From contig JAHEYP010000011.1 of the NCBI GenBank assembly GCA_023251535.1, positions 25,104 to 89,103 on the forward strand: 64,000 bases of DNA. The letters run 5' to 3'. The notes under the pieces are model-generated. The model was not told the origin of the DNA. It was given only the letters and a program-made list of their open reading frames with translations, and ran no database searches. The position numbers and the translations under genes were made by a program. Shown piece after piece: positions 46,692 through 61,705 of this stretch (positions within the stretch are counted from its first letter, which is position 1; every line of letters starts with the position of its first letter). This stretch comes from Bacteroidota bacterium. GTDB lineage: Bacteria; Bacteroidota; Bacteroidia; AKYH767-A; OLB10.

Positions 46692-46785
46692 GGTAAAAGC
46701 ATGATTTTGATTTCGGACATTTTTATCCTATTCGAGCTGCAGTATTTAAATTTACCTAATTTTTAAATACGGTGAAAACCAGCTC

Positions 46786-48615
46786 ATGAGAAACATAACA
46801 TCACATACTTTCCATATACCTGTAATGGGACTTGGATATACCATCGACAGCCCTATTAAAGTCGGAAAATATGGAATTACTTCAGTAGTATCTATCATTG
46901 AAGATCACCTCGTAGAACAAATGCGTGAGGTGATTTGTGAACAAGAAAATTTGCCTTACGAGCATATCACAAATAAAGATGCAGATCGTCGTGCAAAACG
47001 TGTTACTGCTTATTTGAATGTTCTAAATGAAGTATTAAATCGCCAGATCGAAAAAATTAATCAGGAAGATTTTGAAACTGATATCGATATCAATCTTTAC
47101 TTTCAGTATTTACCAGAAACTTCTGTTGCTAAAAAGTTATACTTAGAAATGCTCGATTGCCGTGGCGAAAAACGTCAATTGTTACAAAAAGCTTTACGTC
47201 ATCATATTCTTCCGGGTTCCATTGATATCAACATCATGACAAAACTCGATAAAACTAATTACGATGATGATGGAAATCCTTTACCAGTTGAATATTGTGA
47301 TGCAATGGCGGCACTACGCGGCTTTGCAAAAAGTAATTTAGCATCTTCTATTGTTTTTTCCGCAGGATTAAATCCACGCTTGTTCGGATACTGCGAAACG
47401 TTTTCTGATTTCTATCCGAATCGCGATGGAAAAATCAAAAAAACTATCATTCTAAAAGTAAGTGACTATCGTTCTGCAATAATTCAAGGAAAGTATCTAG
47501 CGAAGAAAGGTTTATGGGTATCAGAATTTAGAATTGAATCGGGAATAAATTGCGGAGGACATCTTTTCGTTTCTAACGGATCTCCTATGGGACCCGTAGT
47601 GGAAGAATTTAAAAATAAACGTCACGAATTATATCAAGAGTTATATGCAGAGTGTTCTAACGCTCTAAAGAGTCAAGATCGCTATCCTTTTTCACAAATG
47701 CCTAAAATGAAAATTTCAGTGCAAGGGGGAATAGGTACTGCACCAGAAAATTCTTTCTTATTGAATTATTACAACGTCGATTCAACAGGTTGGGGTAGTC
47801 CGTTTTTATTGGTGCCCGAAGCTACAAATGTTGATGATGAAACATTGCAAAAATTAATCCACGCCAAAAAAGAAGATTATTATATCAGTCACGCTTCTCC
47901 ACTAGGAATTCCGTTCAGCAATTTCCATCATAGTAGTTCAGAACAACAACGTAAAGAGCGTATCAACAAAAATAAACCGGGAAGTCCTTGCTATAAGAAG
48001 TTTCTTTCGTCGGATACTGAATTTACGGAGCGACCAATTTGCACTGCGTCACGTGAATATCAAAACAATAAAATAAAACAACTTAAAGAATCGATCGTTG
48101 ATGCTACTCGCTTAGCTTATGAAATTGAAAAGATTGTTGAAAAAGATTGTTTATGCGAAGGCTTAGGCACTTCTGCTTTATTAAAAAATCATACTAAACT
48201 ATCACATAATTCAAAAGCAGTAACTATTTGTCCGGGGCCAAATTTAGCTTATTTTAAAAGTACTTATAGTTTGAAAGAAATGATTGATCATATTTACGGA
48301 CGATCACCGCTTCACCTTCAAACTAATCGTCCCAATGTATTCGTGAATGAACTTCAACTTTATGCTGATTATTTGAAAGATGAAATTGAAGAAGATCAAT
48401 TTGCCATCAAACCGAAAAAAGCAGGACACTTCGAAGCTTTCAAAAATAATTTATTGGAAGGAATTAATTACTACGAAAAAACATTCACTGAAGAAGTAAT
48501 ATCTCTTTACAACTTCAACGATAACATTCTCGAAGATTTAAAACGCTTGAGAACTGAAATTACCTTAATCGATACAAAACCTGTAATTGCTAGCGAAATG
48601 GCAATTGCACATTAA
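46786..48615 (+). CDS. Hypothetical 609-aa cytoplasmic protein (Gly-rich loops 'ESGINCGGHLF', 'ISVQGGIGTAPEN')
   Basis: No signal peptide or TM. I could not assign a family. First gene of an apparent operon with the lyase and nor genes. Confidence 0.3.
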   Translation: MRNITSHTFHIPVMGLGYTIDSPIKVGKYGITSVVSIIEDHLVEQMREVICEQENLPYEHITNKDADRRAKRVTAYLNVLNEVLNRQIEKINQEDFETDIDINLYFQYLPETSVAKKLYLEMLDCRGEKRQLLQKALRHHILPGSIDINIMTKLDKTNYDDDGNPLPVEYCDAMAALRGFAKSNLASSIVFSAGLNPRLFGYCETFSDFYPNRDGKIKKTIILKVSDYRSAIIQGKYLAKKGLWVSEFRIESGINCGGHLFVSNGSPMGPVVEEFKNKRHELYQELYAECSNALKSQDRYPFSQMPKMKISVQGGIGTAPENSFLLNYYNVDSTGWGSPFLLVPEATNVDDETLQKLIHAKKEDYYISHASPLGIPFSNFHHSSSEQQRKERINKNKPGSPCYKKFLSSDTEFTERPICTASREYQNNKIKQLKESIVDATRLAYEIEKIVEKDCLCEGLGTSALLKNHTKLSHNSKAVTICPGPNLAYFKSTYSLKEMIDHIYGRSPLHLQTNRPNVFVNELQLYADYLKDEIEEDQFAIKPKKAGHFEAFKNNLLEGINYYEKTFTEEVISLYNFNDNILEDLKRLRTEITLIDTKPVIASEMAIAH

Positions 48616-48648
48616 TAAAATCATAAAAAAAGAAAATACATATTTCCT

Positions 48649-50031
48649 ATGAAAAGTACAAAAAGTAAATCGTGGGCAGAGCCATACAGAATGAAGATGG
48701 TGGAACTTTTAAAGATGACCACTCGCCAAGATAGAATCAAGGCAATCAAAAATGCAGGTTACAATACGTTCTTGTTGAATTCTGACGATGTGTATATCGA
48801 CTTGCTAACTGATAGCGGAACAAATGCCATGAGTGATCGTCAATGGTCGGCATTTATGTTGGGTGATGAAGCTTATGCAGGAAGTAAAAGCTTTTACAAA
48901 ATGGAAGCTGCTATTCAGAAGTTCTACGGATACAAATATGTTATTCCTACGCATCAAGGTCGTGGCGCTGAAAACATCCTTTCTAAAATCCTCATTAAAA
49001 AAGGCGATGTAGTACCGGGAAATATGTACTTCACCACTACCCGACTTCATCAAGAATTAGCCGGTGGTATGTTTACCGATATCATTATCGATCAAGCGCA
49101 TGATCCATTAAACGAATTTCCATTTAAAGGTAATGTTGATCTTAATAAGCTCGACAAAATCGTGAAGAAGTATGGCGCTAAGAAAATTCCTTATGTTAGT
49201 ATAGCCACTAACGTTAATATGGCAGGAGGGCAACCTATCAGCATGAAAAACCTGAAGGATCTGTACAAATATACTCGCAAGCATAAAATCAGAATTATCC
49301 ACGACATGACTCGTGTTGCTGAAAATGCTTATTTCATTCAGCAACGTGAAAAAGGTTATGAAAAATCAACTATCCGTGAAATCGTAAAGGAAATTTGTTC
49401 TTATACGGATGGAGCAACCATGAGTGCTAAAAAAGATGCGTTGGTGAACATTGGAGGATTCATGGCAACTAACGAATGGGATGTGTATGAAGAAGCACGT
49501 AACATGGTAGTTGTATATGAAGGATTGCATACTTATGGAGGACTTGCAGGACGTGATATGGAAGCTATTGCTGTGGGTATCGAAGAAAGTTTAGACGATA
49601 ACCATCAACATGCGCGTGTAGGGCAAGTTGAGTATTTAGGAAATAAAATGATTGATTACGGAATTCCGATTGTAAAACCTATCGGCGGACATGGAATTTT
49701 CGTTGATGCTAAAGCATTCTTACCACACTTAACACAAGATCAATTCCCGGCTCAGACACTCGCTGCTGAAATTTATATCGACTCTGGTGTTCGTACTATG
49801 GAACGCGGAATCGTATCGGCAGGAAGAAAAGCGAATGGCGAAAACTATTATCCGAAATTAGAACTAGTTCGCTTTACAATTCCTCGTCGCGTTTACACAC
49901 AAGCGCATATGGATGTAATTGCAGAATCAGCAGCTGCAGTTTTTGATCGTCGTAAATCGATCAAAGGATTACAAATGATATATGAACCTAAATATTTGAG
50001 ATTCTTCCAAGCGAAATTTAAAAAACTATGA
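48649..50031 (+). CDS. PLP-dependent beta-eliminating lyase, tyrosine phenol-lyase / tryptophanase family (closer to Tpl by eye)
   Basis: 460 aa. 'AGYNTFLLNSDDVYIDLLTDSGTNAMSD', 'IPTHQGRGAEN', 'SAKKDALVNIGG', 'GRDMEAIAVG', 'PAQTLAAEIYIDSGVRTMERGI', 'RFTIPRRVYTQAHMDV' align along the full length of Tpl/TnaA. Confidence 0.85.
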   Translation: MKSTKSKSWAEPYRMKMVELLKMTTRQDRIKAIKNAGYNTFLLNSDDVYIDLLTDSGTNAMSDRQWSAFMLGDEAYAGSKSFYKMEAAIQKFYGYKYVIPTHQGRGAENILSKILIKKGDVVPGNMYFTTTRLHQELAGGMFTDIIIDQAHDPLNEFPFKGNVDLNKLDKIVKKYGAKKIPYVSIATNVNMAGGQPISMKNLKDLYKYTRKHKIRIIHDMTRVAENAYFIQQREKGYEKSTIREIVKEICSYTDGATMSAKKDALVNIGGFMATNEWDVYEEARNMVVVYEGLHTYGGLAGRDMEAIAVGIEESLDDNHQHARVGQVEYLGNKMIDYGIPIVKPIGGHGIFVDAKAFLPHLTQDQFPAQTLAAEIYIDSGVRTMERGIVSAGRKANGENYYPKLELVRFTIPRRVYTQAHMDVIAESAAAVFDRRKSIKGLQMIYEPKYLRFFQAKFKKL

Positions 50032-50435
50032 GCCTACAGCCAAAACATATTTATGTTACGCTGTGCACGCTATTTATAGTTTACTCATTCAGCATTTATC
50101 TGCAGCCGTACTTTAAAAATACGGTTGCAGATACAGATGCTATTGCCGCAGGAAGAATTGTATGGCAAAAGAATAACTGTCAAACTTGTCATCAATTATA
50201 TGGACTTGGCGGTTATTTAGGTCCCGATTTAACCGATGTTTATTCGGCTCCCGGAAAAGGAAAAGATTTTATCAGAGCAATGCTTGCTACCGGAATTAAG
50301 CAAATGCCGCCTTTTCATCTTAGCGAAAAAGAATTCGCTCAGTTAACTGCATATTTAAAATCAGTCGACGAAAGTGGAAATGCTGATCCTCGGCAATTTA
50401 AAAAATTAAACACCGGAATGATTGAAGAAAAATAA
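50028..50435 (+). CDS. Membrane-anchored monoheme cytochrome c, NorC-like
   Basis: 135 aa. N-terminal TM, 'CQTCH' heme site, 'KQMPPF' Met ligand region. The ATG overlaps the lyase stop (ATGA). Confidence 0.6.
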   Translation: MSLQPKHIYVTLCTLFIVYSFSIYLQPYFKNTVADTDAIAAGRIVWQKNNCQTCHQLYGLGGYLGPDLTDVYSAPGKGKDFIRAMLATGIKQMPPFHLSEKEFAQLTAYLKSVDESGNADPRQFKKLNTGMIEEK

Positions 50436-51760
50436 TGAACAGCTATCTATCAATCGGTAAAACATTTTTACTAACAGCACTTTTTATTTTGCTGCTTGCA
50501 TTAACTTTTGGATTGTTATCAGCTTACAATTATTTAAACCTCGATTTCTTAAAAGCTTATCCCGGATTTACTGCCTTGCGACCTATGCATGTTTCTGGTG
50601 TGGTATTTTGGATTATACTTGGAGCAACAGGTTGTGTATATTGCGGATTAAGTGAATTTGTCCTCTCCGAAAAAGAAAACATATCGGTAAAAATACAATG
50701 GCTATTATGGTTGTTGGCGATCGCCGGTATTTTTTATTCCTACTTAACTCATCAATTTGGTGGTAGAGAATATTGGGAATTTAATCCTGTATGGGCTTTA
50801 CCAATTGTAATTGCATGGATAATATTTATCTATAACTTCATTAAAAGTGCTCGCCATTTACGTAATTGGCCGGTATATATTTGGATGTGGTTAACAGGAA
50901 TAGTGTTTTTTATGTTCACATTCTTAGAAAACTACTTATGGTTAATTCCTTATTTCCGCGGACATGTAATTACCGACATGACGATTCAATGGAAAGTTAA
51001 TGGATCACTCGTTGGAGCATGGAACCAATTACTTTACGGAACTTCTTTTTACTTGATGGATAAAATACAGAAGAAGTCGAATGTAGGTCACAGTAAACTT
51101 GCCTTCGCAATGTTCTTTTTAGGTTTGTTTAACTTAATGTTCAATTGGAGTCATCATATCTATACATTGCCGACCGAACATTATATCCGTTATATTGGTT
51201 ATGCTGTTAGCATGACAGAGTGGATCTTCTTTATACGCATAATAGCAATGTGGAAGAAAAGTGTTGATGAAATACCGAAAAACTACAGTTATTATAGTTA
51301 CCGATTTTTATTAGCTAGTGAAATATGGGTATTTCTAAATCTCGGTCAAGCCATATTAATGTCGATCCCGGCAATAAATGTATTTACCCATGGAACACAT
51401 ATCACTGTTGCACATTCAATGGGCACTACTATTGGAATCAATAGCATGATCTTAATGGCTGCTTGCTTTGAATTCTTTAAGATAAATATTGAAAATAAAG
51501 CAGCCAAATTCAATAGCTTTAATGCCATTTTCTGGACCATTCAAATTAGTCTGTTTGTATTTTGGTCGTCATTATTGGCTTCCGGAATTGAAAAAGGAAT
51601 TTGGCAATTAAAACCCAACCATGTTCCATTTTCGGAAATGATGAATAGTTTGTATCCTTATTTCGTATCACTATTCTTATCAGGTCTTGTATTATCATTC
51701 GCATTAGCCGCAATGACTTTAAAAATAATCTCAAGACATTTAGTAAAAAACTACGATTAA
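50435..51760 (+). CDS. Heme-copper oxidase superfamily membrane protein, NorB-like (nitric oxide reductase large subunit-like)
   Basis: 441 aa, about 12 TM. 'RPMHVSGVVFW' (helix II His), 'NWSHHIYTLP' (HH pair), 'FTHGTHITVAHSMGTT' (helix X His cluster) parallel NorB 'HTNLLIVW', 'GTGHHYF', 'YTHGTQLTAAHGH'. Start overlaps the NorC-like stop (TAATG). Confidence 0.6.
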   Translation: MNSYLSIGKTFLLTALFILLLALTFGLLSAYNYLNLDFLKAYPGFTALRPMHVSGVVFWIILGATGCVYCGLSEFVLSEKENISVKIQWLLWLLAIAGIFYSYLTHQFGGREYWEFNPVWALPIVIAWIIFIYNFIKSARHLRNWPVYIWMWLTGIVFFMFTFLENYLWLIPYFRGHVITDMTIQWKVNGSLVGAWNQLLYGTSFYLMDKIQKKSNVGHSKLAFAMFFLGLFNLMFNWSHHIYTLPTEHYIRYIGYAVSMTEWIFFIRIIAMWKKSVDEIPKNYSYYSYRFLLASEIWVFLNLGQAILMSIPAINVFTHGTHITVAHSMGTTIGINSMILMAACFEFFKINIENKAAKFNSFNAIFWTIQISLFVFWSSLLASGIEKGIWQLKPNHVPFSEMMNSLYPYFVSLFLSGLVLSFALAAMTLKIISRHLVKNYD

Positions 51761-51787: not shown

Positions 51788-51830
51788 CAAAACCCGAATC
51801 AAAATAATTAATTTGATTCGGGTTTTAACA
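51788..51830 (+). terminator. Rho-independent terminator after the norB-like gene
   Basis: aaaacccgaatcaaa-ataattaat-ttgattcgggtttt, a perfect 14-bp stem plus T-run. Confidence 0.8.
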
Positions 51831-52244
51831 TTTTATCATTTAGTTTTTCTAATTATTCTACGCGGTCTTGAAACTACTATTGAAAAATAATTTGAAGCTT
51901 GAAGAAATATTAGCAGCATAAATTTTATTAGAAATAGACCAAACAAAACAAACAGTCCAATCAAACCATTTTCGTGCATTAAATCGACTTTAAAAAAGAA
52001 TTTTTCTACGCCAAACGAAGGCCGTGAAACAAATTCGATGTATCAACAAATATTTTTAGAATAGGACACACGATACTGCAAGTATAACCATAATTCCTCC
52101 AAATTATTATGACCAAAGTCAGCATTGTATAAATCCATTAGCCATTCGGCAATTATTGATTTACAGCAGCTTGTTTATAACTAATTCGGACGTGTTTATC
52201 CGATTAATTGAATTGAAATTAAATTTGAAATACAATCTTCAGTC

Positions 52245-52685
52245 ATGATATTTTCCAAAACATGTGAGTACGGAACCAGAGCTGTAATTTACATTGCGCA
52301 ACAAACTAAGAACAATAAAAGAACCAGCTTAAAAGATATTTCAGAACAAATAGGATCTCCCGAGGCATTCACAGCGAAAATATTACAACAATTAGTTAAA
52401 CATAATATCCTTATATCGACAAAGGGTGCCAACGGAGGCTTTGCCGTCGATAAAAAAAAGCTGAAGCGAATAAAATTAATGCATATTGTTTTCGCCATCG
52501 ATGGAGGCGAATACAGAGATATGTGTGTATTGGGATTGAAGAAATGTTCTGCTAAAGATCCTTGCCCGGTCCACCATAAATTTAAGCATGTAAAGAAAGA
52601 TTTGTTGAGTATGTTAAACAATACTACGCTCGACGAACTAACTAATAAAATGAATGACGGTAAGAGTTTCCTTAAACTCGATTGA
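52245..52685 (+). CDS. Rrf2-family transcriptional regulator (NsrR/IscR-like, three Cys for an Fe-S cluster)
   Basis: 146 aa. N-terminal wHTH 'CEYGTRAVIYIAQQ'; Cys triad 'CVLGLKKCSAKDPCPVHH'. Confidence 0.75.
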   Translation: MIFSKTCEYGTRAVIYIAQQTKNNKRTSLKDISEQIGSPEAFTAKILQQLVKHNILISTKGANGGFAVDKKKLKRIKLMHIVFAIDGGEYRDMCVLGLKKCSAKDPCPVHHKFKHVKKDLLSMLNNTTLDELTNKMNDGKSFLKLD

Positions 52686-52739: not shown

Positions 52740-54881
52740 ATGGAAAAATACGTGATTAAAAGAAACGGAGAATACAAACCACTTTCTCTGTTTAAAATTA
52801 GTGATGCAATTCAAAAAGGATTCACCAGTGTCAATGTTGAATATGACAATAATATCTTTTTAAATGTCATTGAAAAGCTTGCACCTAAAACTACTTGGAG
52901 TGTTGAGGAAATTCAAGATTTGATAGAAAAAGAATTGTTCGCTAGAAATTACTTCGAAGTGATGCGGTCATTTATGATCTATCGTCATACACGTAAATTA
53001 CAACGTGAAACATCTGAGGGAATTCAAGCAGATACAACCTATGTAAATAGTACTCAAACTATAGAAGAGTATATCGAACAAACCGATTGGCGTATCAATG
53101 CGAATGCTAATACTAGTTATTCAAATGCGGGTTTAGTAAATAATGTAGCCGGCAAAATAATTGCAAATTATTGGCTCGATAAAGTTTATACTAAAGAAGA
53201 AGGTTATACTCATCGTAATGGTGATGTACATATTCATGATCTTGATTGCCTCACCGGATATTGCGCTGGTTGGAGTTTACGTGTTTTGTTAAATGATGGT
53301 TTTAATGGCATCCGCGGTCGCGTAGAAAGCAAACCTCCTTCTCACTTCCGTGAAGCCTTAGGACAAATGGCGAACTTCTTAGGCATTTTACAAAGTGAAT
53401 GGGCCGGAGCTCAGGCTTTCAGTTCTTTCGATACTTATCTCGCTCCTTATGTCTTTAAAGATCAATTGAGCTATAGTGAAGTATTAAAGGCTATCAGAAG
53501 TTTCGTGTATAACTTAAACGTTCCTGCACGCTGGGGACAGTCTCCTTTTACCAATATTACTCTCGACTGGGTAGTTCCTGCCGATTTAAAAGAACAAATT
53601 CCTACGAAAAAGAATAATCACCTTTTTAGCAATATTCAAAGCGAACAACTTCTTGAAAAAGCGCACGAAAGAGGAGCTGACCAGTTAATTGATATGCGCT
53701 ATGAGCATTTCCAAAAAGAAATGAATCTCATCAATAAAGCGTATTATACGGTAATGACGGAAGGAGATTCTAACGGACAACCTTTTACCTTCCCAATCCC
53801 AACAGTAAACATTACAGAAGATTTCGATTGGTACGGAGAGAACACTGATTTGCTATTTGAGAATACTGCTAAAATCGGTTCGTCATACTTCCAGAATTTT
53901 ATCGGCAGTCAATATAAAATCGACGAACATGGTAATAGAGTAGAAAATGAAAATGCCTATAAACCCAATGCGGTAAGAAGTATGTGTTGCCGCTTGCAAC
54001 TCGATTTAAGAGAATTACTCAAACGTGGCAACGGACTCTTCGGCAGTGCTGAAATGACAGGAAGTATCGGTGTAGTTACGATTAACATGGCGCGATTAGG
54101 TTATCTGTATAAAGGAAATATTGAAGAACTTTACAAACGATTAGATTACTTATTGGAAATAGCGAAATCTACACTAGAGAAAAAAAGAGTATTTATACAA
54201 GAGATGTATGACAGAGGATTATATCCTTACACTAAAAGATATTTACCGCATTTCAGGAACCACTTCTCTACAATTGGTGTAAATGGAATCAATGAAATGA
54301 TTTTAAATTTCACGAATGAGAAAGATAATATTACAACAGACTCTGGAATAATGTTTGCGTCTAAAGTTTTAGATCATATCCGAACTAAAATGCAAGAATT
54401 CCAAGAGGCAACAGGAAATCTTTATAATCTCGAGGCTACTCCTGCTGAAGGTACTACCTATCGTTTTGCTAAAGAAGACAAAAAACGTTTCCCAGATATT
54501 ATCCAAGCCGGTTGCGAAGAAAATATTTATTACACCAACAGTTCCCAAATTCCGGTCGATCATACCGACGATCCATTTGAAGCATTACTCTTGCAAAATG
54601 AACTACAAACAAAATACACTGGAGGAACGGTGCTTCATCTTTACATGAGGGAAAAACTGAGTACACCAGAAGCTTGTCGTAACTTAATTCGCAAAGTGCT
54701 CTCTAATTTCAGTTTACCTTATATTACAATAACGCCTGTATTTAGTATTTGTCCTACACACGGATATTTAACTGGCGAACATGAATACTGTCCGAAATGC
54801 GACAGCCACTTAATTGAAGAACTCAAACTAAACAATCATCACTATGAACAACCATCAGCAGTTACTGCAACAGCACAATGA
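52740..54881 (+). CDS. nrdD: Anaerobic ribonucleoside-triphosphate reductase (class III) main body; glycyl-radical motif is not in this frame
   Basis: 713 aa. ATP-cone start 'MEKYVIKRNGEYKPLSL', catalytic core, C-terminal Zn-ribbon-like 'CPTHG...CPKC'. The ORF stops at 54881 before any RVxGY motif. Confidence 0.85.
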   Translation: MEKYVIKRNGEYKPLSLFKISDAIQKGFTSVNVEYDNNIFLNVIEKLAPKTTWSVEEIQDLIEKELFARNYFEVMRSFMIYRHTRKLQRETSEGIQADTTYVNSTQTIEEYIEQTDWRINANANTSYSNAGLVNNVAGKIIANYWLDKVYTKEEGYTHRNGDVHIHDLDCLTGYCAGWSLRVLLNDGFNGIRGRVESKPPSHFREALGQMANFLGILQSEWAGAQAFSSFDTYLAPYVFKDQLSYSEVLKAIRSFVYNLNVPARWGQSPFTNITLDWVVPADLKEQIPTKKNNHLFSNIQSEQLLEKAHERGADQLIDMRYEHFQKEMNLINKAYYTVMTEGDSNGQPFTFPIPTVNITEDFDWYGENTDLLFENTAKIGSSYFQNFIGSQYKIDEHGNRVENENAYKPNAVRSMCCRLQLDLRELLKRGNGLFGSAEMTGSIGVVTINMARLGYLYKGNIEELYKRLDYLLEIAKSTLEKKRVFIQEMYDRGLYPYTKRYLPHFRNHFSTIGVNGINEMILNFTNEKDNITTDSGIMFASKVLDHIRTKMQEFQEATGNLYNLEATPAEGTTYRFAKEDKKRFPDIIQAGCEENIYYTNSSQIPVDHTDDPFEALLLQNELQTKYTGGTVLHLYMREKLSTPEACRNLIRKVLSNFSLPYITITPVFSICPTHGYLTGEHEYCPKCDSHLIEELKLNNHHYEQPSAVTATAQ

Positions 54882-55008
54882 AAAACGTACTAAGTGTTTA
54901 GTATTTACACGAGTGATGGGCTATCACCGTCCCGTAGAAAGTTTTAACATCGGCAAGAAAGGTGAACACAAACAACGAACTCATTTCAACGAAAACAAAT
55001 GTTGTTAA
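54844..55008 (+). other. Out-of-frame (+1) ORF encoding the NrdD glycyl-radical segment 'TRVMGYHRPVESFNIGKKGEHKQR'
   Basis: Frame-1 translation MNNHQQLLQQHNEKRTKCLVFTRVMGYHRPVESFNIGKKGEHKQRTHFNENKCC*. RVxGY is the glycyl-radical signature. It overlaps the nrdD 3' end by 38 nt and the nrdG 5' end by 47 nt. Confidence 0.5.
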
Positions 55009-55675
55009 GCCAGTTTATAGCATAACACCGTTTACGCTTATCGACTTCCCCGATAAAACCGCTTGCATTGTTTGGTTTTCGGGATGTAATATGCGTTGCA
55101 GTTATTGTTATAATCCCGACATCGTTAACGGCAAAGGAAAACTGAGCTATGATGATGTATTAGATTTTTTAAGGAAGCGGGTGAATTTATTAGATGGAGT
55201 TGTCTTAAGCGGAGGCGAATGTACCCTTCATAAATCCATCGTTGAATTCATCCGCCAAATTAAAGCTTTTGGAATGTTGGTAAAAATCGATACCAATGGA
55301 TCTAATCCAGAAATGCTTCAAATTTTGATCGAAAATAAGTTGATCGATTTTGTTTCGATCGATTTCAAAGCTCCTGAAGCGAAGTTTGATTCAATAACTA
55401 AGTCGAATTTTAATTCGCAATTTCATGAATCTCTTCATTTGCTTATGTCGTCATCGATTCCTTTTGAAGTGCGAACCACAGTCCATTCCGATCTATTATC
55501 AACGAACGATATAAAAGCAATGTCGGAAGAACTTGTCAATGCAAATTATAAAGGGAAATACTTTTTGCAAGAATTTGTCAGTAATGTAATTACTATTGGC
55601 AATCTCGAAAACCCTGTACGTGAATTTTGCGACTATGAACATATCGAGTCCGCAATCCCAATTGAAATTCGTTAA
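54962..55675 (+). CDS. nrdG: Anaerobic RNR activating protein (radical SAM)
   Basis: 'CNMRCSYC' CxxxCxxC cluster motif, about 230 aa, immediately after nrdD. Confidence 0.85.
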   Translation: MNTNNELISTKTNVVKPVYSITPFTLIDFPDKTACIVWFSGCNMRCSYCYNPDIVNGKGKLSYDDVLDFLRKRVNLLDGVVLSGGECTLHKSIVEFIRQIKAFGMLVKIDTNGSNPEMLQILIENKLIDFVSIDFKAPEAKFDSITKSNFNSQFHESLHLLMSSSIPFEVRTTVHSDLLSTNDIKAMSEELVNANYKGKYFLQEFVSNVITIGNLENPVREFCDYEHIESAIPIEIR

Positions 55676-55825
55676 ATTTATTTATTGTTCGTTTAAACAA
55701 GCATTATTTGACTTTCATCACTAATCTATTTAGCGTGACAAGAGTCATTTTTTGAGGCTATCTCTATTCCTAATTTTAGTCTGTAATTGTCGCTAAATGA
55801 CTTTACTGCTAAACGCTATTTTATA

Positions 55826-56563
55826 ATGAATGGGAAGAAACTATTGATGATTTTTTTATTGGCTGCAATAACAATATCATCTTGCAAAAAAGACGATGAT
55901 ACAACTCCTATAACACCGGCTACTGAATCAGGATTGAAATTATCCATTAACTATACAATCGATAATAAACCCCTCTACATCGACAGTTTCCTTTATACAT
56001 CGGCTGCAGGATTAAACTATAGTATAAACAGGTTTCAATATTATCTGACATCAATTAAATTGATAAAACCTGATAATAGTGAAATCGTTGTTGCAAGTAA
56101 TCATTACTTTGATGCATTCGATGCTACTACATCAACAATAACAGCTTCAAATATACCAGCAGGTAATTATATCGGAATCAAATTCAAAATCGGTGTGGAT
56201 TCTTCTATGAATTATTGGGATTCTCTTCCAATAACGACAGAAAATACAAATATGCTTTGGCCACTCTTAATGGGCGGTGGATATCATTTCTTGAAATTTG
56301 AAGGCTATTACAAAGACGCTGGAAATGACTATGGTTATGCAATGCATCTAGGCACTAATGCATGCATTATTCCAATTTCCATATCCAAGAATATTACAGT
56401 AACATCAAGCAGCGCATTACAATTAAACATGACCATGAATATTAGTGAATGGTTAAAGAATCCAAACACGTTTAATTTTAATACGGATGGCAATTATATT
56501 ATGGGAGATTCTACGGCCATGAATAAAATAACCCAAAACGGACAAGATGTATTTAGCTTCTAA
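55826..56563 (+). CDS. Lipoprotein of unknown function, possibly an MbnP-like partner of the di-heme peroxidase
   Basis: Lipobox 'ITISSCKKDDD'. Sits 5' of, and slightly overlapping, the CCP gene. Start taken at MNGKKLL (55826). Confidence 0.3.
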   Translation: MNGKKLLMIFLLAAITISSCKKDDDTTPITPATESGLKLSINYTIDNKPLYIDSFLYTSAAGLNYSINRFQYYLTSIKLIKPDNSEIVVASNHYFDAFDATTSTITASNIPAGNYIGIKFKIGVDSSMNYWDSLPITTENTNMLWPLLMGGGYHFLKFEGYYKDAGNDYGYAMHLGTNACIIPISISKNITVTSSSALQLNMTMNISEWLKNPNTFNFNTDGNYIMGDSTAMNKITQNGQDVFSF

Positions 56564-56567
56564 GATC

Positions 56568-57629
56568 ATGAAAAATATTATTTATTTATCCGCCGTTCTT
56601 GTAGTATTGACAATGTACTCTTGTAAAAAAGATACAGTTGAGTCGACACCATATACTCCTACCGCATACGAACTAACCGTACCTGACCATTTCCCACCAC
56701 CCTATCTATCAAATGAAAATCCTTTAACTGTTGAAGGAGTACGATTAGGAAGAATGCTCTATTACGACCCTATATTATCGACGAACGGATTATCATGCAC
56801 TGCATGTCACGAACCTAGCAAATCGTTCTCTACGGGCATCTATACTGCTCCTAGCGGAGAAAAAATCAGCGTGCCTCCTCATGTTAATTTAGCATGGAAT
56901 CCCGATTATAACTGGACCGGCTCAGAACCGATCTTAAATCACTTACCGATGGGTGATTTTAGTCCGACAATCTTTAATACCGATATGGCTTTACTTGTTA
57001 CAAAGTTTAAGTCACATGCATTATATCCTACATTATTTAAACAAGCCTTCAATATTGATGATGTAGCTTCATTATCACACCACGATTTACAAGTTAAAAT
57101 CTCATTAGCTATAACTCAGTTCTTGAGAACAATGGTTTCATCAGACACAAAATTAGATCGAGTAATGCGACATGAAGCTACTTTCACTCCACAAGAATGG
57201 GATGGATATGTAACGTTCACAACTGAAACGGGTGATTGTTTCCATTGTCATGGATATCCGTTAATGACAAGTAATATTTACAGCAACAACGGACTTGAAC
57301 TTTCTCCTCAAGGAACTAATCAAGGAAGATATTTAGTCACAGGCAATCCAACTGATATTGGTAAATACAGCATTCCATCGCTAAGAAATATTGAATTGAC
57401 AGCACCGTATATGCACGATGGTAGATTCCAGACGTTAGAAGATGTAGTAGAATTTTATAATTCAGGAGTGCAATGGAATTCACCGAATATTGATCCGATT
57501 ATGACGAAGCCTGCGAAAATCTACGGATTAAATCTAACACCTACACAAAAAGCTAACTTAGTGTTATTCCTTAAGGCACTTACCGACTCAACCTTTATGA
57601 ATAATCCTAACTATGCTAATCCGCTTTAA
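56568..57629 (+). CDS. Di-heme cytochrome c peroxidase family (CCP/MauG/MbnH-like)
   Basis: Two CxxCH sites, 'CTACHEP' and 'CFHCHGYP'. About 350 aa with signal peptide. Confidence 0.85.
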   Translation: MKNIIYLSAVLVVLTMYSCKKDTVESTPYTPTAYELTVPDHFPPPYLSNENPLTVEGVRLGRMLYYDPILSTNGLSCTACHEPSKSFSTGIYTAPSGEKISVPPHVNLAWNPDYNWTGSEPILNHLPMGDFSPTIFNTDMALLVTKFKSHALYPTLFKQAFNIDDVASLSHHDLQVKISLAITQFLRTMVSSDTKLDRVMRHEATFTPQEWDGYVTFTTETGDCFHCHGYPLMTSNIYSNNGLELSPQGTNQGRYLVTGNPTDIGKYSIPSLRNIELTAPYMHDGRFQTLEDVVEFYNSGVQWNSPNIDPIMTKPAKIYGLNLTPTQKANLVLFLKALTDSTFMNNPNYANPL

Positions 57630-59304: not shown

Positions 59305-59727
59305 TTATTTACCTTTTAAAGTACGTACGTAGTTAACAATTGCCCAACGTTCGTTATCGCTAAGTTTTTCTTTGAAAGATGGCATTGGTTTTCTTCCTTC
59401 AGTAGTTTTCCAATATAATTCGCCATCGCTAGCTTTTGCAAATTCAGCAGAAGTGAAATCACCGCAGCTGATATCAATTTTCTCTGCTTTAGTTCCGTCA
59501 CCTTTACCTTTAGCTCCATGGCAAGATTTGCAATGTTGAGCCCATAATTCTTTTCCTTCAGCTACGCTTGCGTCGTCAGCTTTTACAGGATTTTTCATTT
59601 TCACAGCATTGTCAGGTGCTGGCCAAGGTTTTCCTTTAGGTTTTTCTTGAGCGTTTGCAGTACCTGCTGCTAACATCAATACAACTGCTAATGCAGATGC
59701 TGATAACATGCTACCAATTGTTTTCAT
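59305..59727 (-). CDS. Class I monoheme cytochrome c
   Basis: Signal peptide, 'CKSCHG', Met ligand region 'RKPMPSF'. Start taken at MKTIGSML. Confidence 0.75.
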   Translation of the reverse strand: MKTIGSMLSASALAVVLMLAAGTANAQEKPKGKPWPAPDNAVKMKNPVKADDASVAEGKELWAQHCKSCHGAKGKGDGTKAEKIDISCGDFTSAEFAKASDGELYWKTTEGRKPMPSFKEKLSDNERWAIVNYVRTLKGK

Positions 59728-59758
59728 TGTGAAATTCATAATTTTTGTTTTTAAGAGA

Positions 59759-60310
59759 TTATTTGTGCTTAGCAAGATGCTTGCTAGTTTTTCTGATTTT
59801 AAATAATTGAAGTACTACATAGATGATTGTGCCCCAGATTCCAAAGAGAAGCAAATTTGATACCACAATAAAATAGATTGGGGCATTTTCGCGTGATCCT
59901 GATAAAGATCTCTCTAATTCTGCAACTTGCTTGCGAGGTACACACCAATTAGATTCAGAATGTACTTCTGCACTACCATAGTTCTCATCATCTTCAACTT
60001 TCGCAATAACTTCAATTTTTCCATTTAAATCGGCAGGGATATCACCAGGAAATTCAAACTTCGCATTTCCTTCTTCATCTGTACTAACTCCATCACCTAT
60101 TGGGAGTAAAGAAAACAATCGCTTCACGTAAAGTTTAACTTCCACTCCAGATATCGAAGTGTCAGATGAAGTTGCATGAACAACACAGTATTTTACTGAA
60201 TCTTCTGTTGTATAGTCAATCTTCAGCGAAGCTTCATAATCTTGTGCTGAAGCTATCTTTGAAAAAGCAACAAGAAGGGCGAATATTATTATTTTATAGC
60301 TCTTTTTCAT
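59759..60310 (-). CDS. Hypothetical periplasmic protein with C-terminal TM anchor
   Basis: Signal peptide, acidic 130-aa domain, C-terminal helix 'IYFIVVSNLLLFGIWGTIIYVVLQLF'. Sits between the cytochrome c and the NrfD-like genes. Confidence 0.3.
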   Translation of the reverse strand: MKKSYKIIIFALLVAFSKIASAQDYEASLKIDYTTEDSVKYCVVHATSSDTSISGVEVKLYVKRLFSLLPIGDGVSTDEEGNAKFEFPGDIPADLNGKIEVIAKVEDDENYGSAEVHSESNWCVPRKQVAELERSLSGSRENAPIYFIVVSNLLLFGIWGTIIYVVLQLFKIRKTSKHLAKHK

Positions 60311-60317
60311 AACGCTG

Positions 60318-61694
60318 TTATTTGTAATTAATAATTTCATCTTTTCCTTCTAGTTTACCTTCAGCAACTTCCCAAACAGAAATAATTGGGAAGAAACGTG
60401 AGAAGATTGTAACTATTAACATCATTGCTGCGAATGTTGCAGATACGATAGTCATTTCTACAAGACTAGGACTATAGTGCATCCAAGATTTAGGCACATC
60501 TTGAATTGGCATATATGGATGCGCTAATCCAGGAATTACAATCAAATAGCGTTTGAACCAAGCAGCAATAACAACAACAACTGCGATTACTGTTAATGGA
60601 ACAGGTTTACGCATTGCTTTAAATAACGGTAGAATAGCTGGCACAAACATTCCGAAGAATACTACTGACCAATATAGTGGAGCATCTTTGCCAATAAATA
60701 CACTTAACAAGTGATTGGCATGCAATCCTGACATTTTATAAGCAGGAACTAAATATTCGTTCACATTAAAGTAAATGTAAATACATGACATCAATACCAG
60801 GGCTTGTCCGAGTTTATCGAAATGCATAGGTGTTAGATAATTTTCTAGTTTATATGCTTTACGGAATACAAACACGGCAACAATCATAGCAGCAACTCCA
60901 AGTAAGAATGCACCTGAAACGAAGTAAGCTCCGAAGTTTGTACTATCCCACTCTGAACGTAATGTGGTTGCAAATAACCAAGCAGTAACAGTGTGAATTG
61001 AAACTCCTAAAGGAATAACCAACACAGTTAAAATCTTAATGCATTTCTTCAACACTTTCCATTGTTCAGGAGTGCCTTCCCATCCTAGCGATAAAAATTC
61101 GTACATCCTCATTTGCCATTTCGGCTTATTATGTAAGTGATTACTGCAAGTAGAAAGCGAAGGAATCAACGGAATAAACAACAGAATCAAACTTGCTGTT
61201 ATGTACGTTAATATTACAATGATATCCCAAACAATCGGAGATTGAATCCTTCCATGTAAAAACAGATAGTGTAAACGATCAGGGCGACCCATGGCAGCAA
61301 CGATACTCACACCGGCAAGCATAATTGCAGACACTGCAATAATTTCTGCGATACGAGATAAAGGTCGATACCATTCAAAGTGTGTAAGTTTTAGTACAGC
61401 CGACATCAATACACCGATTAAGCTTAAGGCAACAAAAAATACGAAGTTAGAAATATAAACTCCCCACATTGTATAATCACGAAGGGAAACAGTTACATAT
61501 TTACTTCTGGTTTCTTGGATATAATACGCAACAACACCTGCAATGCAAACCATTATTAAAAAGGCAATCCAGATTTTACCCCATTTACCGATTGTTTGTA
61601 CCGGGCGAAGTAAGTCACTCTTCATTTCCATATACTCTTCCTGAGTAAACGTTTCATACGTTGTTTTCTCAGATAATATTCTAGGATCTTTCAT
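60318..61694 (-). CDS. NrfD/PsrC-family quinol-interacting integral membrane subunit
   Basis: 458 aa, 8 to 10 TM, directly after the NrfC-like Fe-S gene (12-nt gap). Confidence 0.7.
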   Translation of the reverse strand: MKDPRILSEKTTYETFTQEEYMEMKSDLLRPVQTIGKWGKIWIAFLIMVCIAGVVAYYIQETRSKYVTVSLRDYTMWGVYISNFVFFVALSLIGVLMSAVLKLTHFEWYRPLSRIAEIIAVSAIMLAGVSIVAAMGRPDRLHYLFLHGRIQSPIVWDIIVILTYITASLILLFIPLIPSLSTCSNHLHNKPKWQMRMYEFLSLGWEGTPEQWKVLKKCIKILTVLVIPLGVSIHTVTAWLFATTLRSEWDSTNFGAYFVSGAFLLGVAAMIVAVFVFRKAYKLENYLTPMHFDKLGQALVLMSCIYIYFNVNEYLVPAYKMSGLHANHLLSVFIGKDAPLYWSVVFFGMFVPAILPLFKAMRKPVPLTVIAVVVVIAAWFKRYLIVIPGLAHPYMPIQDVPKSWMHYSPSLVEMTIVSATFAAMMLIVTIFSRFFPIISVWEVAEGKLEGKDEIINYK

Positions 61695-61705
61695 AACAAT
61701 GAGTA

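What the first reader, a model, noticed from the sequence alone, without database searches (positions are those of the whole stretch)
46786..51760. Four-gene translationally coupled unit: unknown 609-aa protein, Tpl/TnaA-family lyase, NorC-like cytochrome c and NorB-like heme-copper protein
Seen: the lyase stop overlaps the ATG of the NorC-like gene (ATGA at 50028..50031). The NorC-like stop overlaps the NorB-like start (TAATG at 50433..50437). Only 33 nt separate the 609-aa ORF from the lyase. A strong terminator appears only after the NorB-like gene.

The lyase aligns by eye along its whole length with tyrosine phenol-lyase and tryptophanase. The membrane protein has the heme-copper-oxidase His pattern (MH, HH, THGTH...AH). 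The small protein is a TM-anchored CxxCH cytochrome.

Established: norCB encodes cytochrome-c-dependent NO reductase. A PLP beta-eliminating lyase obligatorily co-translated with it is not a described arrangement.

Inference: either NO-stress-linked aromatic amino-acid catabolism (indole or phenol production under denitrifying conditions), or the NorB-like protein is not a bona fide NO reductase. The 609-aa protein is a candidate novel component.
Basis: partly seen in the sequence, partly recalled or inferred. Interest (0 to 1): 0.65.

Follow-up and report, generated by a model that had tools for sequence, protein, structure and literature searches.

The report
Anoxia/NO-type operon with divergent NorCB
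An uncultured wastewater Bacteroidia bacterium has a real, widely conserved four-gene operon that joins a tyrosine-degrading enzyme, a new flavoenzyme-like protein and a nitric-oxide-reductase look-alike with an altered catalytic site. All four sit behind a newly found regulatory DNA site, probably as a survival kit for oxygen-poor, nitrogen-oxide-rich conditions.

Summary
In detail: four same-strand genes at 46786-51760, with ATGA and TAATG overlaps, a 33-nt gap and one strong terminator.

- **Lyase:** a genuine tyrosine phenol-lyase (TPL).
- **Small cytochrome:** NorC-like, with haem and Ca ligands intact.
- **Membrane protein:** has the NorB/CcoN fold but is not a canonical cNOR. FeB ligand His207 is Asn, Glu211 and Glu215 are Val and Asn, and haem b ligand His349 is Met. 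These changes hold in 119-121 of 121 relatives. True cNORs coexist with it in some loci.
- **609-aa protein:** founds an unannotated family with an NMO/FabK/FabX-like FMN barrel fold, conserved cysteines, and one fusion to a diflavin reductase.

The HCO family occurs in at least 595 species genomes, nearly all Bacteroidota. TPL lies within 10 kb of it in 43 of 61 loci, but only 16 of 59 TPL loci carry the HCO. So the link is frequent, not obligatory.

A palindrome, TCGGAY-N6-RTCCGA, precedes both this operon and the neighbouring Rrf2-nrdDG genes.

Best reading: an Rrf2-controlled anoxia/NO regulon that co-expresses oxygen-independent amino-acid catabolism with a divergent N-oxide reductase. 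The coupling is regulatory rather than through a shared substrate. The inducing signal and the enzyme chemistry are inferred, not shown.

The parts
46713..46730 (.). Operator-like palindrome TCGGACATTTTTATCCTA, 56 nt upstream of the 609-aa gene
   Evidence: It is the best weight-matrix score in the whole 64-kb window (24.2 bits). The same motif lies upstream of X609 homologues in 24 related loci.
46786..48615 (+). X609: a 609-aa protein of an unannotated family, predicted to be an FMN-dependent TIM-barrel oxidoreductase (NMO/FabK/FabX-like) with a conserved cysteine set
   Evidence: No hit in Pfam, NCBIfam or PDB by sequence. The family has 1006 clusters at 50% identity. The AF2 model has pLDDT 87.4 and pTM 0.90. 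Foldseek finds FabX at E = 4e-11, then PfaD, FabK and NMO. Invariant residues are R249-x-E-S-G-x-N-C-G-G-H259, C402, C419 and C457. P0250 is a fusion to a diflavin reductase.
48649..50031 (+). Tyrosine phenol-lyase (PLP-dependent beta-eliminating lyase)
   Evidence: PF01212, E = 2e-73. TIGR02618 equivalog, 728.2 bits against a cutoff of 720.7. 612 bits to TPL 1c7g, with Y71, R100, F123/T124, K257, R381, R404 and F448/F449 conserved in the printed alignment.
50028..50435 (+). NorC-like membrane-anchored monohaem cytochrome c
   Evidence: PF13442 and PF00034. The best PDB match is NorC 3o0r_C at E = 3.2e-12. The CxxCH motif, the Gly/Tyr of the Ca site and the MPxF Met ligand all align. It is adjacent to the HCO gene in 79 of 80 loci.
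50435..51760 (+). Divergent NorB/CcoN-like haem-copper-superfamily subunit. N189 replaces the first FeB/CuB His, V193 and N197 replace Glu211 and Glu215, and M329 replaces the second haem b His.
   Evidence: PF00115, 96 bits. The AF2 model has pLDDT 79 and pTM 0.85, with TM 0.79-0.81 to both cNOR NorB and cbb3 CcoN.
51789..51826 (+). Intrinsic terminator hairpin closing the operon
   Evidence: -21.2 kcal/mol, z = -5.85.
52186..52203 (.). Second copy of the operator palindrome, TCGGACGTGTTTATCCGA, 42 nt upstream of the Rrf2 gene
   Evidence: It matches the TCGGA-N8-TCCGA seed with no mismatch and scores 20.4 bits. The motif is upstream of Rrf2 genes in 25 related loci.
52245..52685 (+). Rrf2-family regulator with a C94-x6-C101-x5-C107 motif. 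It is the presumed repressor of the operon and of itself.
   Evidence: PF02082 and TIGR00738. The Cys motif is read from the translation. It is not assignable to NsrR or IscR by score. An Rrf2 gene is present in 34 of 61 loci.
52740..55675 (+). nrdD and nrdG (anaerobic ribonucleotide reductase and its activase), directly downstream of the Rrf2 gene and probably in the same regulon
   Evidence: ORFs. The order Rrf2-NrdD-NrdG is conserved in 14-15 related loci.

Best explanation
The four genes form one operon that belongs to the regulon of the neighbouring, autoregulated Fe-S-type Rrf2 regulator. The operon is switched on when oxygen is scarce and/or nitric oxide is present.

Its products are not steps of one pathway. 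They are functions needed together under that condition:

1. TPL splits tyrosine into pyruvate, ammonia and phenol without needing oxygen. In other genomes a tryptophanase-like paralogue sits beside it. The pyruvate can yield ATP through pyruvate:ferredoxin oxidoreductase and ADP-forming acetyl-CoA synthetase, which sit next to TPL elsewhere.
2. The NorC-like cytochrome passes electrons to a divergent NorB-like subunit that reduces a nitrogen oxide. NO is most likely and N2O is possible. The site has two His plus Asn at the non-haem metal and a His/Met low-spin haem.
3. The 609-aa protein is an FMN (and probably Fe-S) oxidoreductase of unknown substrate that takes reducing equivalents from NAD(P)H-type donors.

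Shown: gene order, junctions, family assignments, ligand substitutions, conservation statistics and the shared palindrome. Inferred: that the palindrome binds the Rrf2 protein, that the signal is NO or anoxia, the substrate of the HCO, and the cofactors and substrate of X609.
For: - **Operon anatomy:**
- **Conservation:** the HCO family is found in at least 595 species genomes. In 61 loci with 6 kb or more upstream, cyt c is adjacent in 61, a TPL orthologue is present in 43, X609 in 43 and Rrf2 in 34. The stop/start overlaps are conserved.
- **Shared operator:** 71 seed matches against 16-23 in shuffles. With the weight matrix, 74 sites against 0-5 in shuffles, 65 of them intergenic. They precede Rrf2 (25), X609 (24), the lyase (9) and cyt c (2). 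The positions left unconstrained in the seed search show symmetric bias. The window's two sites are its top scorers.
- **Neighbourhood content typical of NO or anoxia responses:** RIC/ScdA-hemerythrin (28 loci), NrdDG (15), NadA and NadB (27), Pro_dh (35), Crp/Fnr (14), NosDFY (11-13), and canonical cNOR with or without NorQ.
- **TPL as a catabolic, ATP-linked enzyme:** in TPL-centred loci without the HCO, TPL is followed by ADP-forming acetyl-CoA synthetase (12 loci), and PFOR is nearby in 9. The same synthetase lies directly upstream of cyt c in 11 HCO loci.
- **NorC-like subunit intact:** the HCO receives electrons, so it is a reductase.
- **X609 as a redox enzyme:** fold, diflavin reductase fusion, conserved cysteines.
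Against: - No expression data exist. The inducing signal is inferred only from gene content.
- The Rrf2 protein scores below the NsrR and IscR equivalog cutoffs, and its best PDB match is IscR at only 30 bits. It could instead sense Fe-S status or redox state.
- The operator is not clearly enriched in TPL loci that lack the HCO (25 hits against 5-20 in shuffles), so TPL's membership of the regulon is shown only where it lies in the X609/HCO operon.
- Loss of Glu211 and Glu215, which from my own knowledge of the cNOR mutagenesis literature are needed for cNOR activity, makes ordinary NO reduction uncertain.
- TPL is much more conserved than its neighbours (about 85% against about 60%). That could hint at a more specific constraint than general catabolism.
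- The window itself has no PFOR or acetyl-CoA synthetase gene within its 64 kb.
Confidence: 0.55

Rival explanations
1. The NorC'B' complex is a membrane-bound nitrous oxide reductase. This is the uncharacterised 'N2O red' HCO family that Murali et al. tied to the sulfide- and acetylene-insensitive activity of Flexibacter canadensis. On this reading the operon supports N2O respiration fed by amino-acid catabolism.
For: - PMC11214002 describes a family 'closely related to cNOR', placed between the C-family oxidases and cNOR. It was found in 293 GTDB genomes and is linked to a Bacteroidota organism.
- The protein here scores between cNOR and cbb3 and is Bacteroidota-wide.
- Canonical cNOR coexists with it in some loci, which argues for a non-redundant function.
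- nosDFY-type genes are nearby in 11-13 loci.
Against: - I could not verify that the two families are the same, because no supplementary text is held.
- The paper offers the N2O role only as a possibility.
- Where nos accessory genes are nearby, an ordinary NosZ is probably present as well. It is seen in Pontibacter (L088), which makes a second N2O reductase less necessary.
- No chemistry is known for N2O reduction at a haem/non-haem site.
Confidence: 0.15
2. There is direct metabolic coupling. TPL, X609 and the HCO act on a common small molecule. For example, X609 could oxidise or reduce a TPL substrate or product such as phenol, a nitrated tyrosine or phenol, or aminoacrylate. Alternatively, TPL could remove 3-nitrotyrosine formed under nitrosative stress.
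For: - X609 and TPL recur next to each other even without the HCO, in either orientation, in about 9 TPL-centred loci.
- X609 has the fold of the nitronate monooxygenase / FabX superfamily.
- TPL is unusually conserved, at about 85% identity.
Against: - X609 also occurs directly in front of cyt c-HCO with no lyase (L019, L039, L078, L083, L084).
- It occurs with Pro_dh and PTPS but no lyase in Pontibacter, and alone in Desulfobacterota.
- TPL keeps every canonical tyrosine-specific residue.
- No paper links TPL to nitrosative stress.
Confidence: 0.12
3. The HCO is an ordinary NO reductase in all but detail, and the cluster is a plain NsrR nitrosative-stress regulon. TPL is a passenger gene with no condition-specific role.
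For: - JGI annotates the pair as NorC and NorB.
- The NorC features, the Ca-site Glu, Glu138 and Glu280 equivalents are retained.
- RIC and Rrf2 are neighbours.
Against: - Two of the six His and both active-site Glu are replaced in essentially all 121 members.
- The protein scores 30-43 bits against solved NorB, whereas the canonical Bacteroidota NorB from the same loci scores 373.
- TPL linkage in 43 of 61 species-level loci, with conserved short junctions, is not passenger-like.
Confidence: 0.1
4. The HCO is an NO-dismutase-like enzyme that makes O2 from NO under anoxia. That O2 would supply oxygen-requiring enzymes such as the FabX/NMO-like X609.
For: - As in the putative NODs, one metal-ligating His is replaced by Asn and catalytic Glu residues are lost (PMC3413370).
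- FabX and NMO-family enzymes use O2 (PMC8626469).
Against: - NODs are qNOR-derived and lack an electron entry route. This enzyme keeps a complete haem c NorC subunit and the haem b ligands (His/Met), so it is built to receive electrons.
- The substituted His is a different one from that in NOD.
- Co-expression with the oxygen-sensitive NrdDG argues against internal O2 production.
Confidence: 0.04

Closest known systems
Cytochrome c-dependent nitric oxide reductase (cNOR, NorCB; P. aeruginosa 3o0r, R. denitrificans 4xyd)
   Same: - A two-subunit architecture, with the norC-like gene overlapping the norB-like gene.
- A TM-anchored monohaem NorC with CxxCH, the Met ligand and the Gly/Tyr Ca ligands.
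- A 12-helix NorB fold (TM 0.79-0.80).
- Equivalents of His60, His258/259, His347, Glu135, Glu138 and Glu280.
   Different: - His207 becomes Asn, Glu211 becomes Val, Glu215 becomes Asn and His349 becomes Met.
- There are extra invariant residues K187 and H322.
- It scores only 30-73 bits to NorB, against 373 bits for the true Bacteroidota NorB that coexists in some of the same loci.
- No norQ or norD is attached.
'N2O red' HCO family of Murali et al. 2024 (PMC11214002)
   Same: It is described as an uncharacterised HCO family close to cNOR within the C-family branch. It lacks the active-site Tyr and is linked to a Bacteroidota organism. Its genome counts are of a similar order.
   Different: Identity with the present family could not be verified, because no sequences or active-site description are held. 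The paper does not mention the TPL, X609 or Rrf2 context.
Putative NO dismutase (NOD) and nNOR
   Same: NOD replaces one non-haem-metal His with Asn and loses a catalytic Glu (PMC3413370). nNOR has a His/Met low-spin haem (PMC11214002). Both substitutions therefore have precedents in HCOs that handle N-oxides.
   Different: NOD is a fused qNOR-type protein with no haem c, and it substitutes a different His. nNOR belongs to the B-family branch and has a CuA-type subunit. Here both changes occur together in a cNOR-type two-subunit enzyme.
Tyrosine phenol-lyase of Citrobacter / Erwinia (1c7g, 2ez1)
   Same: The alignment is full-length at roughly 65% identity (my estimate from the printed alignment), all catalytic and specificity residues are conserved, and it passes the TIGR02618 equivalog cutoff.
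   Different: The genomic context differs. From my own knowledge, enterobacterial tpl is a TyrR-controlled, tyrosine-induced gene. Here it is embedded in an Rrf2-operator-controlled operon with respiratory genes.
H. pylori FabX and the NMO/FabK/PfaD FMN TIM-barrel superfamily
   Same: These are the best structural matches (E = 4e-11, TMt 0.66). There is a conserved G-G-H motif that resembles the family's catalytic His region. FabX sets a precedent for an added [4Fe-4S] subdomain.
   Different: Identity is 8-16% and there is no PF03060 sequence match. X609 has about 240 extra residues. Its cysteine spacing (C402, C419, C455/C457, C482) is unlike FabX's C300-x3-C-x3-C-x11-C. The substrate is unknown.
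NsrR-type Rrf2 regulons for nitrosative stress
   Same: There is an autoregulated Rrf2 repressor gene with three Cys, a palindromic operator, and targets that include an NO-reductase-like enzyme with RIC nearby.
   Different: The regulator does not reach the NsrR equivalog score. As far as I know, the operator sequence TCGGAY-N6-RTCCGA is unlike the published NsrR or IscR boxes. The targets include TPL, X609 and nrdDG.

Membership tests
cNOR NorB | Six invariant histidines (Pa numbering: 60 and 349 for haem b, 347 for haem b3, 207/258/259 for FeB) | tested here: not met
   Four of the six are present. Position 207 is Asn189 and position 349 is Met329, in single-sequence and profile alignments to 3o0r_B and 4xyd_A. 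N189 is in 120/121 members and M329 in 121/121.
cNOR NorB | Active-site glutamates Glu211 (FeB ligand) and Glu215 | tested here: not met
   They align to V193 (119/121) and N197 (121/121). The Glu280 equivalent, E262, is kept.
cNOR NorB | Partner NorC with a TM anchor, haem c CxxCH, a Met ligand and Ca-site residues; NorB Glu135 | tested here: met
   NorC 3o0r_C at E = 3.2e-12, with the motifs aligned. E112 in GREYWE aligns to Glu135 and E115 to Glu138.
cNOR NorB | 12-helix HCO subunit I fold | tested here: met
   AF2 pTM 0.85, with TM 0.79-0.80 to 3o0r_B and 4xyd_A.
cNOR NorB | NO to N2O activity with cytochrome c as the donor | not testable with these tools
   Needs an enzyme assay.
cbb3-type oxidase CcoN | Three CuB histidines with a His-Tyr cross-link, and a CcoO (FixO) partner | tested here: not met
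   The first CuB His is absent. There is no Tyr six residues before the HH pair (L234). The partner is NorC-like, not FixO. TIGR00780 scores 29.9 against a cutoff of 583.
Nitric oxide dismutase (NOD) | A qNOR-type fused protein with no haem c and a degenerate quinol site | tested here: not met
   There is a separate 135-aa haem c subunit, and the HCO is 441 aa. Only the His-to-Asn logic is shared.
'N2O red' HCO family (Murali 2024) | Family HMM or active-site signature as defined by the authors | not testable with these tools
   The definition is in supplementary data that are not held. The only consistent points are the placement near cNOR and the Bacteroidota link.
Tyrosine phenol-lyase | Equivalog-level sequence score | tested here: met
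   TIGR02618 at 728.2 bits against a cutoff of 720.7, so it passes only narrowly. The tryptophanase equivalogs are far below their cutoffs. Orthologues in related loci score 744-749.
Tyrosine phenol-lyase | PLP lysine and substrate-specificity residues (Y71, R100, F123/T124, K257, R381, R404, F448/F449) | tested here: met
   All are identical in the alignment to 1c7g. The residue roles come from my own knowledge of the C. freundii TPL literature.
Tyrosine phenol-lyase | Phenol release from L-tyrosine | not testable with these tools
   Needs an enzyme assay.
NMO/FabK/FabX FMN TIM-barrel superfamily (for X609) | Barrel fold similar to family members | tested here: met
   Foldseek probability is 1.00 for 41 PDB chains, all of this superfamily or of FAS enoyl-reductase domains. 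The top hit is FabX at E = 4e-11.
NMO/FabK/FabX FMN TIM-barrel superfamily (for X609) | Sequence-level match to the family model (PF03060) | tested here: not met
   No Pfam or NCBIfam hit at E <= 0.01. No PDB sequence hit.
NMO/FabK/FabX FMN TIM-barrel superfamily (for X609) | Catalytic His next to FMN; [4Fe-4S] subdomain (FabX only) | tested here: inconclusive
   The G257-G258-H259 motif is invariant, and there are six cysteines that are invariant or at least 90% conserved. Residue-level structural superposition was not available, and the Cys spacing differs from FabX.
NsrR (for the Rrf2 regulator) | Equivalog score; three cluster-ligating Cys; NO-sensitive DNA binding | tested here: inconclusive
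   The three Cys are present (C94, C101, C107). NF008240 scores 42.6 against a cutoff of 182. NO sensitivity is not testable here.

The most novel reading that the evidence does not exclude
The NorC'B' pair is a new catalytic class of haem-copper-superfamily enzyme. It has a 2-His/Asn non-haem site, invariant Lys187 and His322, and a His/Met low-spin haem. Its reaction differs from that of the cNOR coexisting in the same genomes. It could be N2O reduction, which would be a second, non-NosZ biological N2O sink, or some other N-oxide conversion. It works together with a previously unrecognised FMN/Fe-S enzyme family (X609) inside a Bacteroidota-wide Rrf2 regulon that also rewires aromatic amino-acid catabolism for anoxia.
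Probability: 0.25. Interest if true: 0.85.

Novelty: new variant of a known kind. Interest (0 to 1): 0.6.

Why it matters
Bacteroidota are abundant in wastewater, soils and sediments, where N2O is produced and consumed.

- Current annotation calls this protein 'NorB' or 'cbb3 subunit I' in at least 595 species. It has a different catalytic site from both, so gene-based denitrification budgets that count it as a NO reductase may be wrong.
- If it reduces N2O, it would be a second biological N2O sink.
- The work gives a testable regulon: an operator sequence, a regulator and its targets.
- It gives a fold and cofactor hypothesis for a family of about 1000 clusters of 'hypothetical proteins'.
- It offers a rationale for why environmental Bacteroidota carry tyrosine phenol-lyase, namely oxygen-independent harvesting of pyruvate and ATP. 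That also predicts phenol and indole release under anoxic, N-oxide-rich conditions.

Tried and rejected
- **Sequence searches for X609 found nothing:** Pfam, NCBIfam and PDB sequences. Only the fold search gave a placement.
- **Literature:** no paper combines TPL with nor genes, NsrR or nitrosative stress. Nothing further was found on the 'N2O red' family or on Solitalea canadensis. The PNAS paper's supplements are not held, so I could not test whether the two families are the same.
- **A 2026 bioRxiv paper on compost N2O** was opened and found irrelevant.
- **Operator in HCO-less TPL loci:** not convincingly enriched, so I do not claim TPL is always in the regulon.
- **A perfect palindrome match at window 7268** lies inside an ORF (6805-7710). 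I treat it as chance.
- **Regulator subtype:** the Rrf2 regulator could not be assigned to NsrR, IscR or another subtype by score.
- **O2 reductase reading rejected:** the cross-linking His is absent and there is no Tyr at the cbb3 position.
- **NOD reading largely rejected:** an intact haem c electron-entry subunit is present.
- **Chance adjacency rejected** by the conservation statistics.
- **Partner genes elsewhere in the window:** I searched for PFOR, acetyl-CoA synthetase, RIC, NadAB, Pro_dh, PTPS, cNOR and NosZ/NosD. None was found.

Full report
**1.
- ORF listing and the raw sequence show four + strand genes: 46786-48615 (609 aa, here called X609), 48649-50031 (460 aa), 50028-50435 (135 aa) and 50435-51760 (441 aa).
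- The ATGA overlap at 50028-50031, the TAATG overlap at 50433-50437 and the 33-nt spacer are as described.
- The only strong terminator is the hairpin at 51789-51826, at -21.2 kcal/mol and z = -5.85 against shuffles.
- A weak terminator-like site inside the last gene is within chance expectation.
- The exact proteins exist in public assemblies of an uncultured Bacteroidia MAG (93-kb contig). There X609 is 'hypothetical', and JGI names the last two 'nitric oxide reductase subunit C/B'.
- Near-identical loci come from activated-sludge and digester metagenomes (L089-L091).

**2. The lyase is a tyrosine phenol-lyase.**
- It matches PF01212.
- It narrowly passes the NCBIfam TPL equivalog (728.2 against 720.7) and is far below the tryptophanase equivalog cutoffs.
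- It aligns end to end with solved TPLs at about 600 bits. The PLP lysine and the residues I know as TPL-specific (Y71, R100, F123/T124, R381, R404, F448/F449) are all conserved.

**3. The small cytochrome is NorC-like.** Its best solved relative is P. aeruginosa NorC (E = 3.2e-12). The TM anchor, CxxCH, the Gly/Tyr that ligate the bridging Ca2+, and the MPxF methionine all align.

**4. The membrane subunit has the fold of NorB/CcoN but not the catalytic site of NorB.**

Sequence and profile searches rank cNOR NorB first (72.8 bits with a 35-member profile), then cbb3 CcoN (44.5), then qNOR (20). An AlphaFold model (pLDDT 79, pTM 0.85) superposes equally well on NorB and CcoN, with TM 0.79-0.81.

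| Pa NorB position | Role in cNOR | Residue here | Status |
|---|---|---|---|
| His60 | haem b ligand | H52 | kept |
| His258 / His259 | FeB ligands | H240 / H241 | kept |
| His347 | haem b3 ligand | H327 | kept |
| Glu135 | Ca site | E112 | kept |
| Glu138 | proton-uptake path (my own knowledge) | E115 | kept |
| Glu280 | conserved Glu near the active site (my own knowledge) | E262 | kept |
| His207 | FeB ligand | Asn189 | replaced |
| Glu211 | FeB ligand | Val193 | replaced |
| Glu215 | active-site Glu | Asn197 | replaced |
| His349 | second haem b ligand | Met329 | replaced |

- Across 121 family members these residues are N 120, V 119, N 121 and M 121. There are also family-specific invariant residues Lys187 and His322.
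- The His that would cross-link to Tyr in oxidases is absent, so O2 reduction is excluded.
- Both kinds of change have precedents. The putative NO dismutases show His-to-Asn with loss of a catalytic Glu (PMC3413370). nNOR has a His/Met low-spin haem (PMC11214002). The combination in a cNOR-type two-subunit enzyme is not described in anything I could read.
- Five related loci (L018, L027, L030, L033, L068) also carry a second NorC/NorB-like pair within 10 kb. In the one I examined in detail (L030) the NorB is canonical: 373 bits to Pa NorB with WWVVHLWVEGVWEL, GHHY and MHGH intact, and with SCO1 and RIC beside it. L018 has a NorQ gene next to its second pair.
- The divergent protein is therefore a distinct paralogue, not a drifted orthologue.
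[quoted passage not shown] They cite Flexibacter canadensis, a Bacteroidota organism. Position, taxonomy and abundance fit the present family, but I could not verify that they are the same.

**5. X609 is the founder of a sizeable unannotated family.**
- It has no Pfam, NCBIfam or PDB sequence match.
- An exhaustive search finds 1006 clusters at 50% identity, mostly about 600 aa. They occur in Bacteroidota, including cultured Pontibacter, Botryobacter and Catalinimonas, and in Desulfobacterota.
- A confident model (pLDDT 87.4, pTM 0.90) matches only the FMN-dependent NMO/FabK/PfaD/FabX barrel superfamily. The best match is H. pylori FabX (E = 4e-11). FabX carries FMN, a catalytic His and a C-terminal [4Fe-4S] subdomain (PMC8626469).
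- X609 has an invariant R-x-E-S-G-x-N-C-G-G-H259 motif. C402, C419 and C457 are invariant, and C256, C455 and C482 are at least 90% conserved.
- One relative, P0250, is fused to a complete diflavin NAD(P)H reductase.
- I infer an FMN, and probably Fe-S, oxidoreductase that receives NAD(P)H-derived electrons. Its substrate is unknown.

**6. The gene order is conserved but modular.** The HCO family was found in at least 595 species-representative genomes, nearly all of them Bacteroidota MAGs.

| Feature, among the 61 of the 80 best loci that have 6 kb or more upstream | Loci |
|---|---|
| NorC-like gene directly upstream of the HCO gene | 61 |
| TPL orthologue within 10 kb (mostly 83-95% identical, while the HCO is 55-64% in all but one locus) | 43 |
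| TPL orthologue directly adjacent | 32 |
| X609 homologue | 43 |
| Tryptophanase-subfamily paralogue (classified) | 23 |
| Rrf2 gene | 34 |

- The cyt c/HCO overlap is kept in 72 of 80 loci, and the lyase-cyt c gap is 36 nt or less in 41 of 44.
- De novo clustering of neighbourhood ORFs adds further recurring genes:
  - Pro_dh immediately downstream of the HCO (35 loci)
  - NadA and NadB between X609 and the lyases (27)
  - RIC/ScdA-hemerythrin (28)
  - PTPS (19)
  - divergent Fasciclin (29) and Thioredoxin_9 (16)
  - NrdDG (15)
  - MbnP plus a MauG-like peroxidase (15-16, also in the window)
  - a Crp/Fnr regulator (14)
  - NosD/F/Y-like genes (11-13)
  - an ADP-forming acetyl-CoA synthetase directly in front of cyt c (11)
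- Some loci have X609 directly before cyt c with no lyase, and three have TPL after the HCO.
- In the reverse direction, of the 59 TPL-centred metagenome loci with 2.5 kb or more downstream, only 16 have the HCO within 6 kb. The rest are mostly a TnaA-like/TPL tandem. That tandem is directly followed by the acetyl-CoA synthetase in 12 loci and has PFOR nearby in 9. RIC (15), PTPS (13), X609 (18) and Rrf2 (12) also recur.
- So the linkage is frequent, not obligatory.

**7. A shared operator.**
- The window carries TCGGACATTTTTATCCTA 56 nt before X609 and TCGGACGTGTTTATCCGA 42 nt before the Rrf2 gene.
- Across the 80 loci the seed TCGGA-N8-TCCGA, allowing one mismatch, occurs 71 times against 16-23 in shuffles, and mostly upstream of genes.
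- A weight matrix gives 74 sites against 0-5 in shuffles, 65 of them intergenic. They precede Rrf2 (25), X609 (24, often shared with the divergent Fasciclin gene), the lyase (9), a radical-SAM gene (8) and cyt c (2).
- The eight positions not constrained in the seed show symmetric Y-A-W-W-W-W-T-R bias.
- The regulator has a C-x6-C-x5-C motif typical of cluster-binding Rrf2 proteins, but it cannot be assigned to NsrR or IscR by score.
- nrdD and nrdG follow the Rrf2 gene at a conserved short distance.

**8. Interpretation.** The simplest account of all this is a regulon, not a pathway.
- An Fe-S Rrf2 repressor controls a set of functions needed when oxygen is low and N-oxides are present: anaerobic dNTP synthesis (NrdDG), an N-oxide-reducing haem enzyme, X609, and, in many genomes, quinolinate synthesis by NadA and NadB.
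- It also controls oxygen-independent cleavage of Tyr (and Trp) to pyruvate, which can feed PFOR and ADP-forming acetyl-CoA synthetase for ATP.
- The coupling of TPL to the NorC-like gene is then regulatory and stoichiometric, not chemical.
- The signal, the HCO substrate and the X609 reaction are inferred.
- The rivals are a real N2O reductase, direct TPL-X609 chemistry, an ordinary NOR with a passenger TPL, and a NOD-like O2 generator. They are listed with their tests in the rival-explanations section.

**9. Novelty and score.**
- The individual kinds are known: an NsrR-like regulon, an HCO-family N-oxide enzyme and TPL.
- The following appear undescribed in the literature I could search:
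  - the specific HCO active site
  - the X609 family
  - the operator
  - the recurrent embedding of TPL
- I rate it a new variant of a known kind, with interest 0.6.

Noticed in passing
window 59305-62647 (- strand), plus 62705-63595: There is an NrfC-like 4Fe-4S protein, an NrfD-like membrane protein, a 193-aa unknown and a monohaem cytochrome c, preceded by a DUF5777 beta-barrel. This looks like a NrfCD/NosGH-type quinol:cytochrome c module. It could donate electrons to the NorC-like subunit, or it could belong to a clade-II nos cluster that runs off the window end.
   Followed up: partly
window 55787-57629: An MbnP-like protein and a MauG/di-haem peroxidase (MbnH-like) pair lie right after nrdG. 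The same pair recurs near the HCO in 15-16 of 80 related loci. Its role, for example copper acquisition for an N-oxide enzyme, was not examined.
   Followed up: partly
L030 3252-6994; L018 8476-11124; also L027, L033, L068: A second NorC/NorB-like pair lies within 10 kb of the divergent pair. In L030 the NorB is canonical, with all ligands intact, and is flanked by SCO1 and RIC. In L018 a NorQ gene lies next to the second pair.
   Followed up: yes
P0250 (1167 aa; not in the window): This is a natural fusion of the X609 domain to a Flavodoxin_1 + FAD_binding_1 + NAD_binding_1 diflavin reductase. P0252 carries an N-terminal TetR domain and P0266 a C-terminal acyltransferase domain.
   Followed up: partly
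L130 7388-9442; L160 9882-13304; L067 7526-9577: ADP-forming acetyl-CoA synthetase and PFOR genes sit next to TPL, or directly upstream of the cyt c gene, in other genomes. Neither gene is in the 64-kb window.
   Followed up: yes
L088 (Pontibacter ruber) and L087 (Desulfobacterota): In Pontibacter, X609 sits in the order Pro_dh-X609-PTPS-Pro_dh, beside nosZ/L/D/F/Y, a truncated globin and a class II RNR, with no HCO or TPL. In a Desulfobacterota contig it stands alone among unrelated genes.
   Followed up: partly
window 46786 vs 46825: Several public annotations start X609 13 codons later, giving 596 aa. Residues 7-13 (HTFHIPV) are conserved across distant homologues, so the longer 609-aa start is the better call.
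   Followed up: yes
window 7268-7285: A perfect TCGGA-N8-TCCGA match (TCGGACAATGGGATCCGA, 17.2 bits) lies inside the ORF at 6805-7710. Its centre is GC-rich, unlike the operator consensus, so it is probably chance.
   Followed up: partly
related loci L007-L086, TPL vs HCO identities: TPL orthologues are mostly 83-89% identical to the window's, while the adjacent HCO, cyt c and X609 are only 47-66%. Either TPL is under unusually strong constraint, or it has moved between these genomes more recently than its neighbours. This was not resolved.
   Followed up: no
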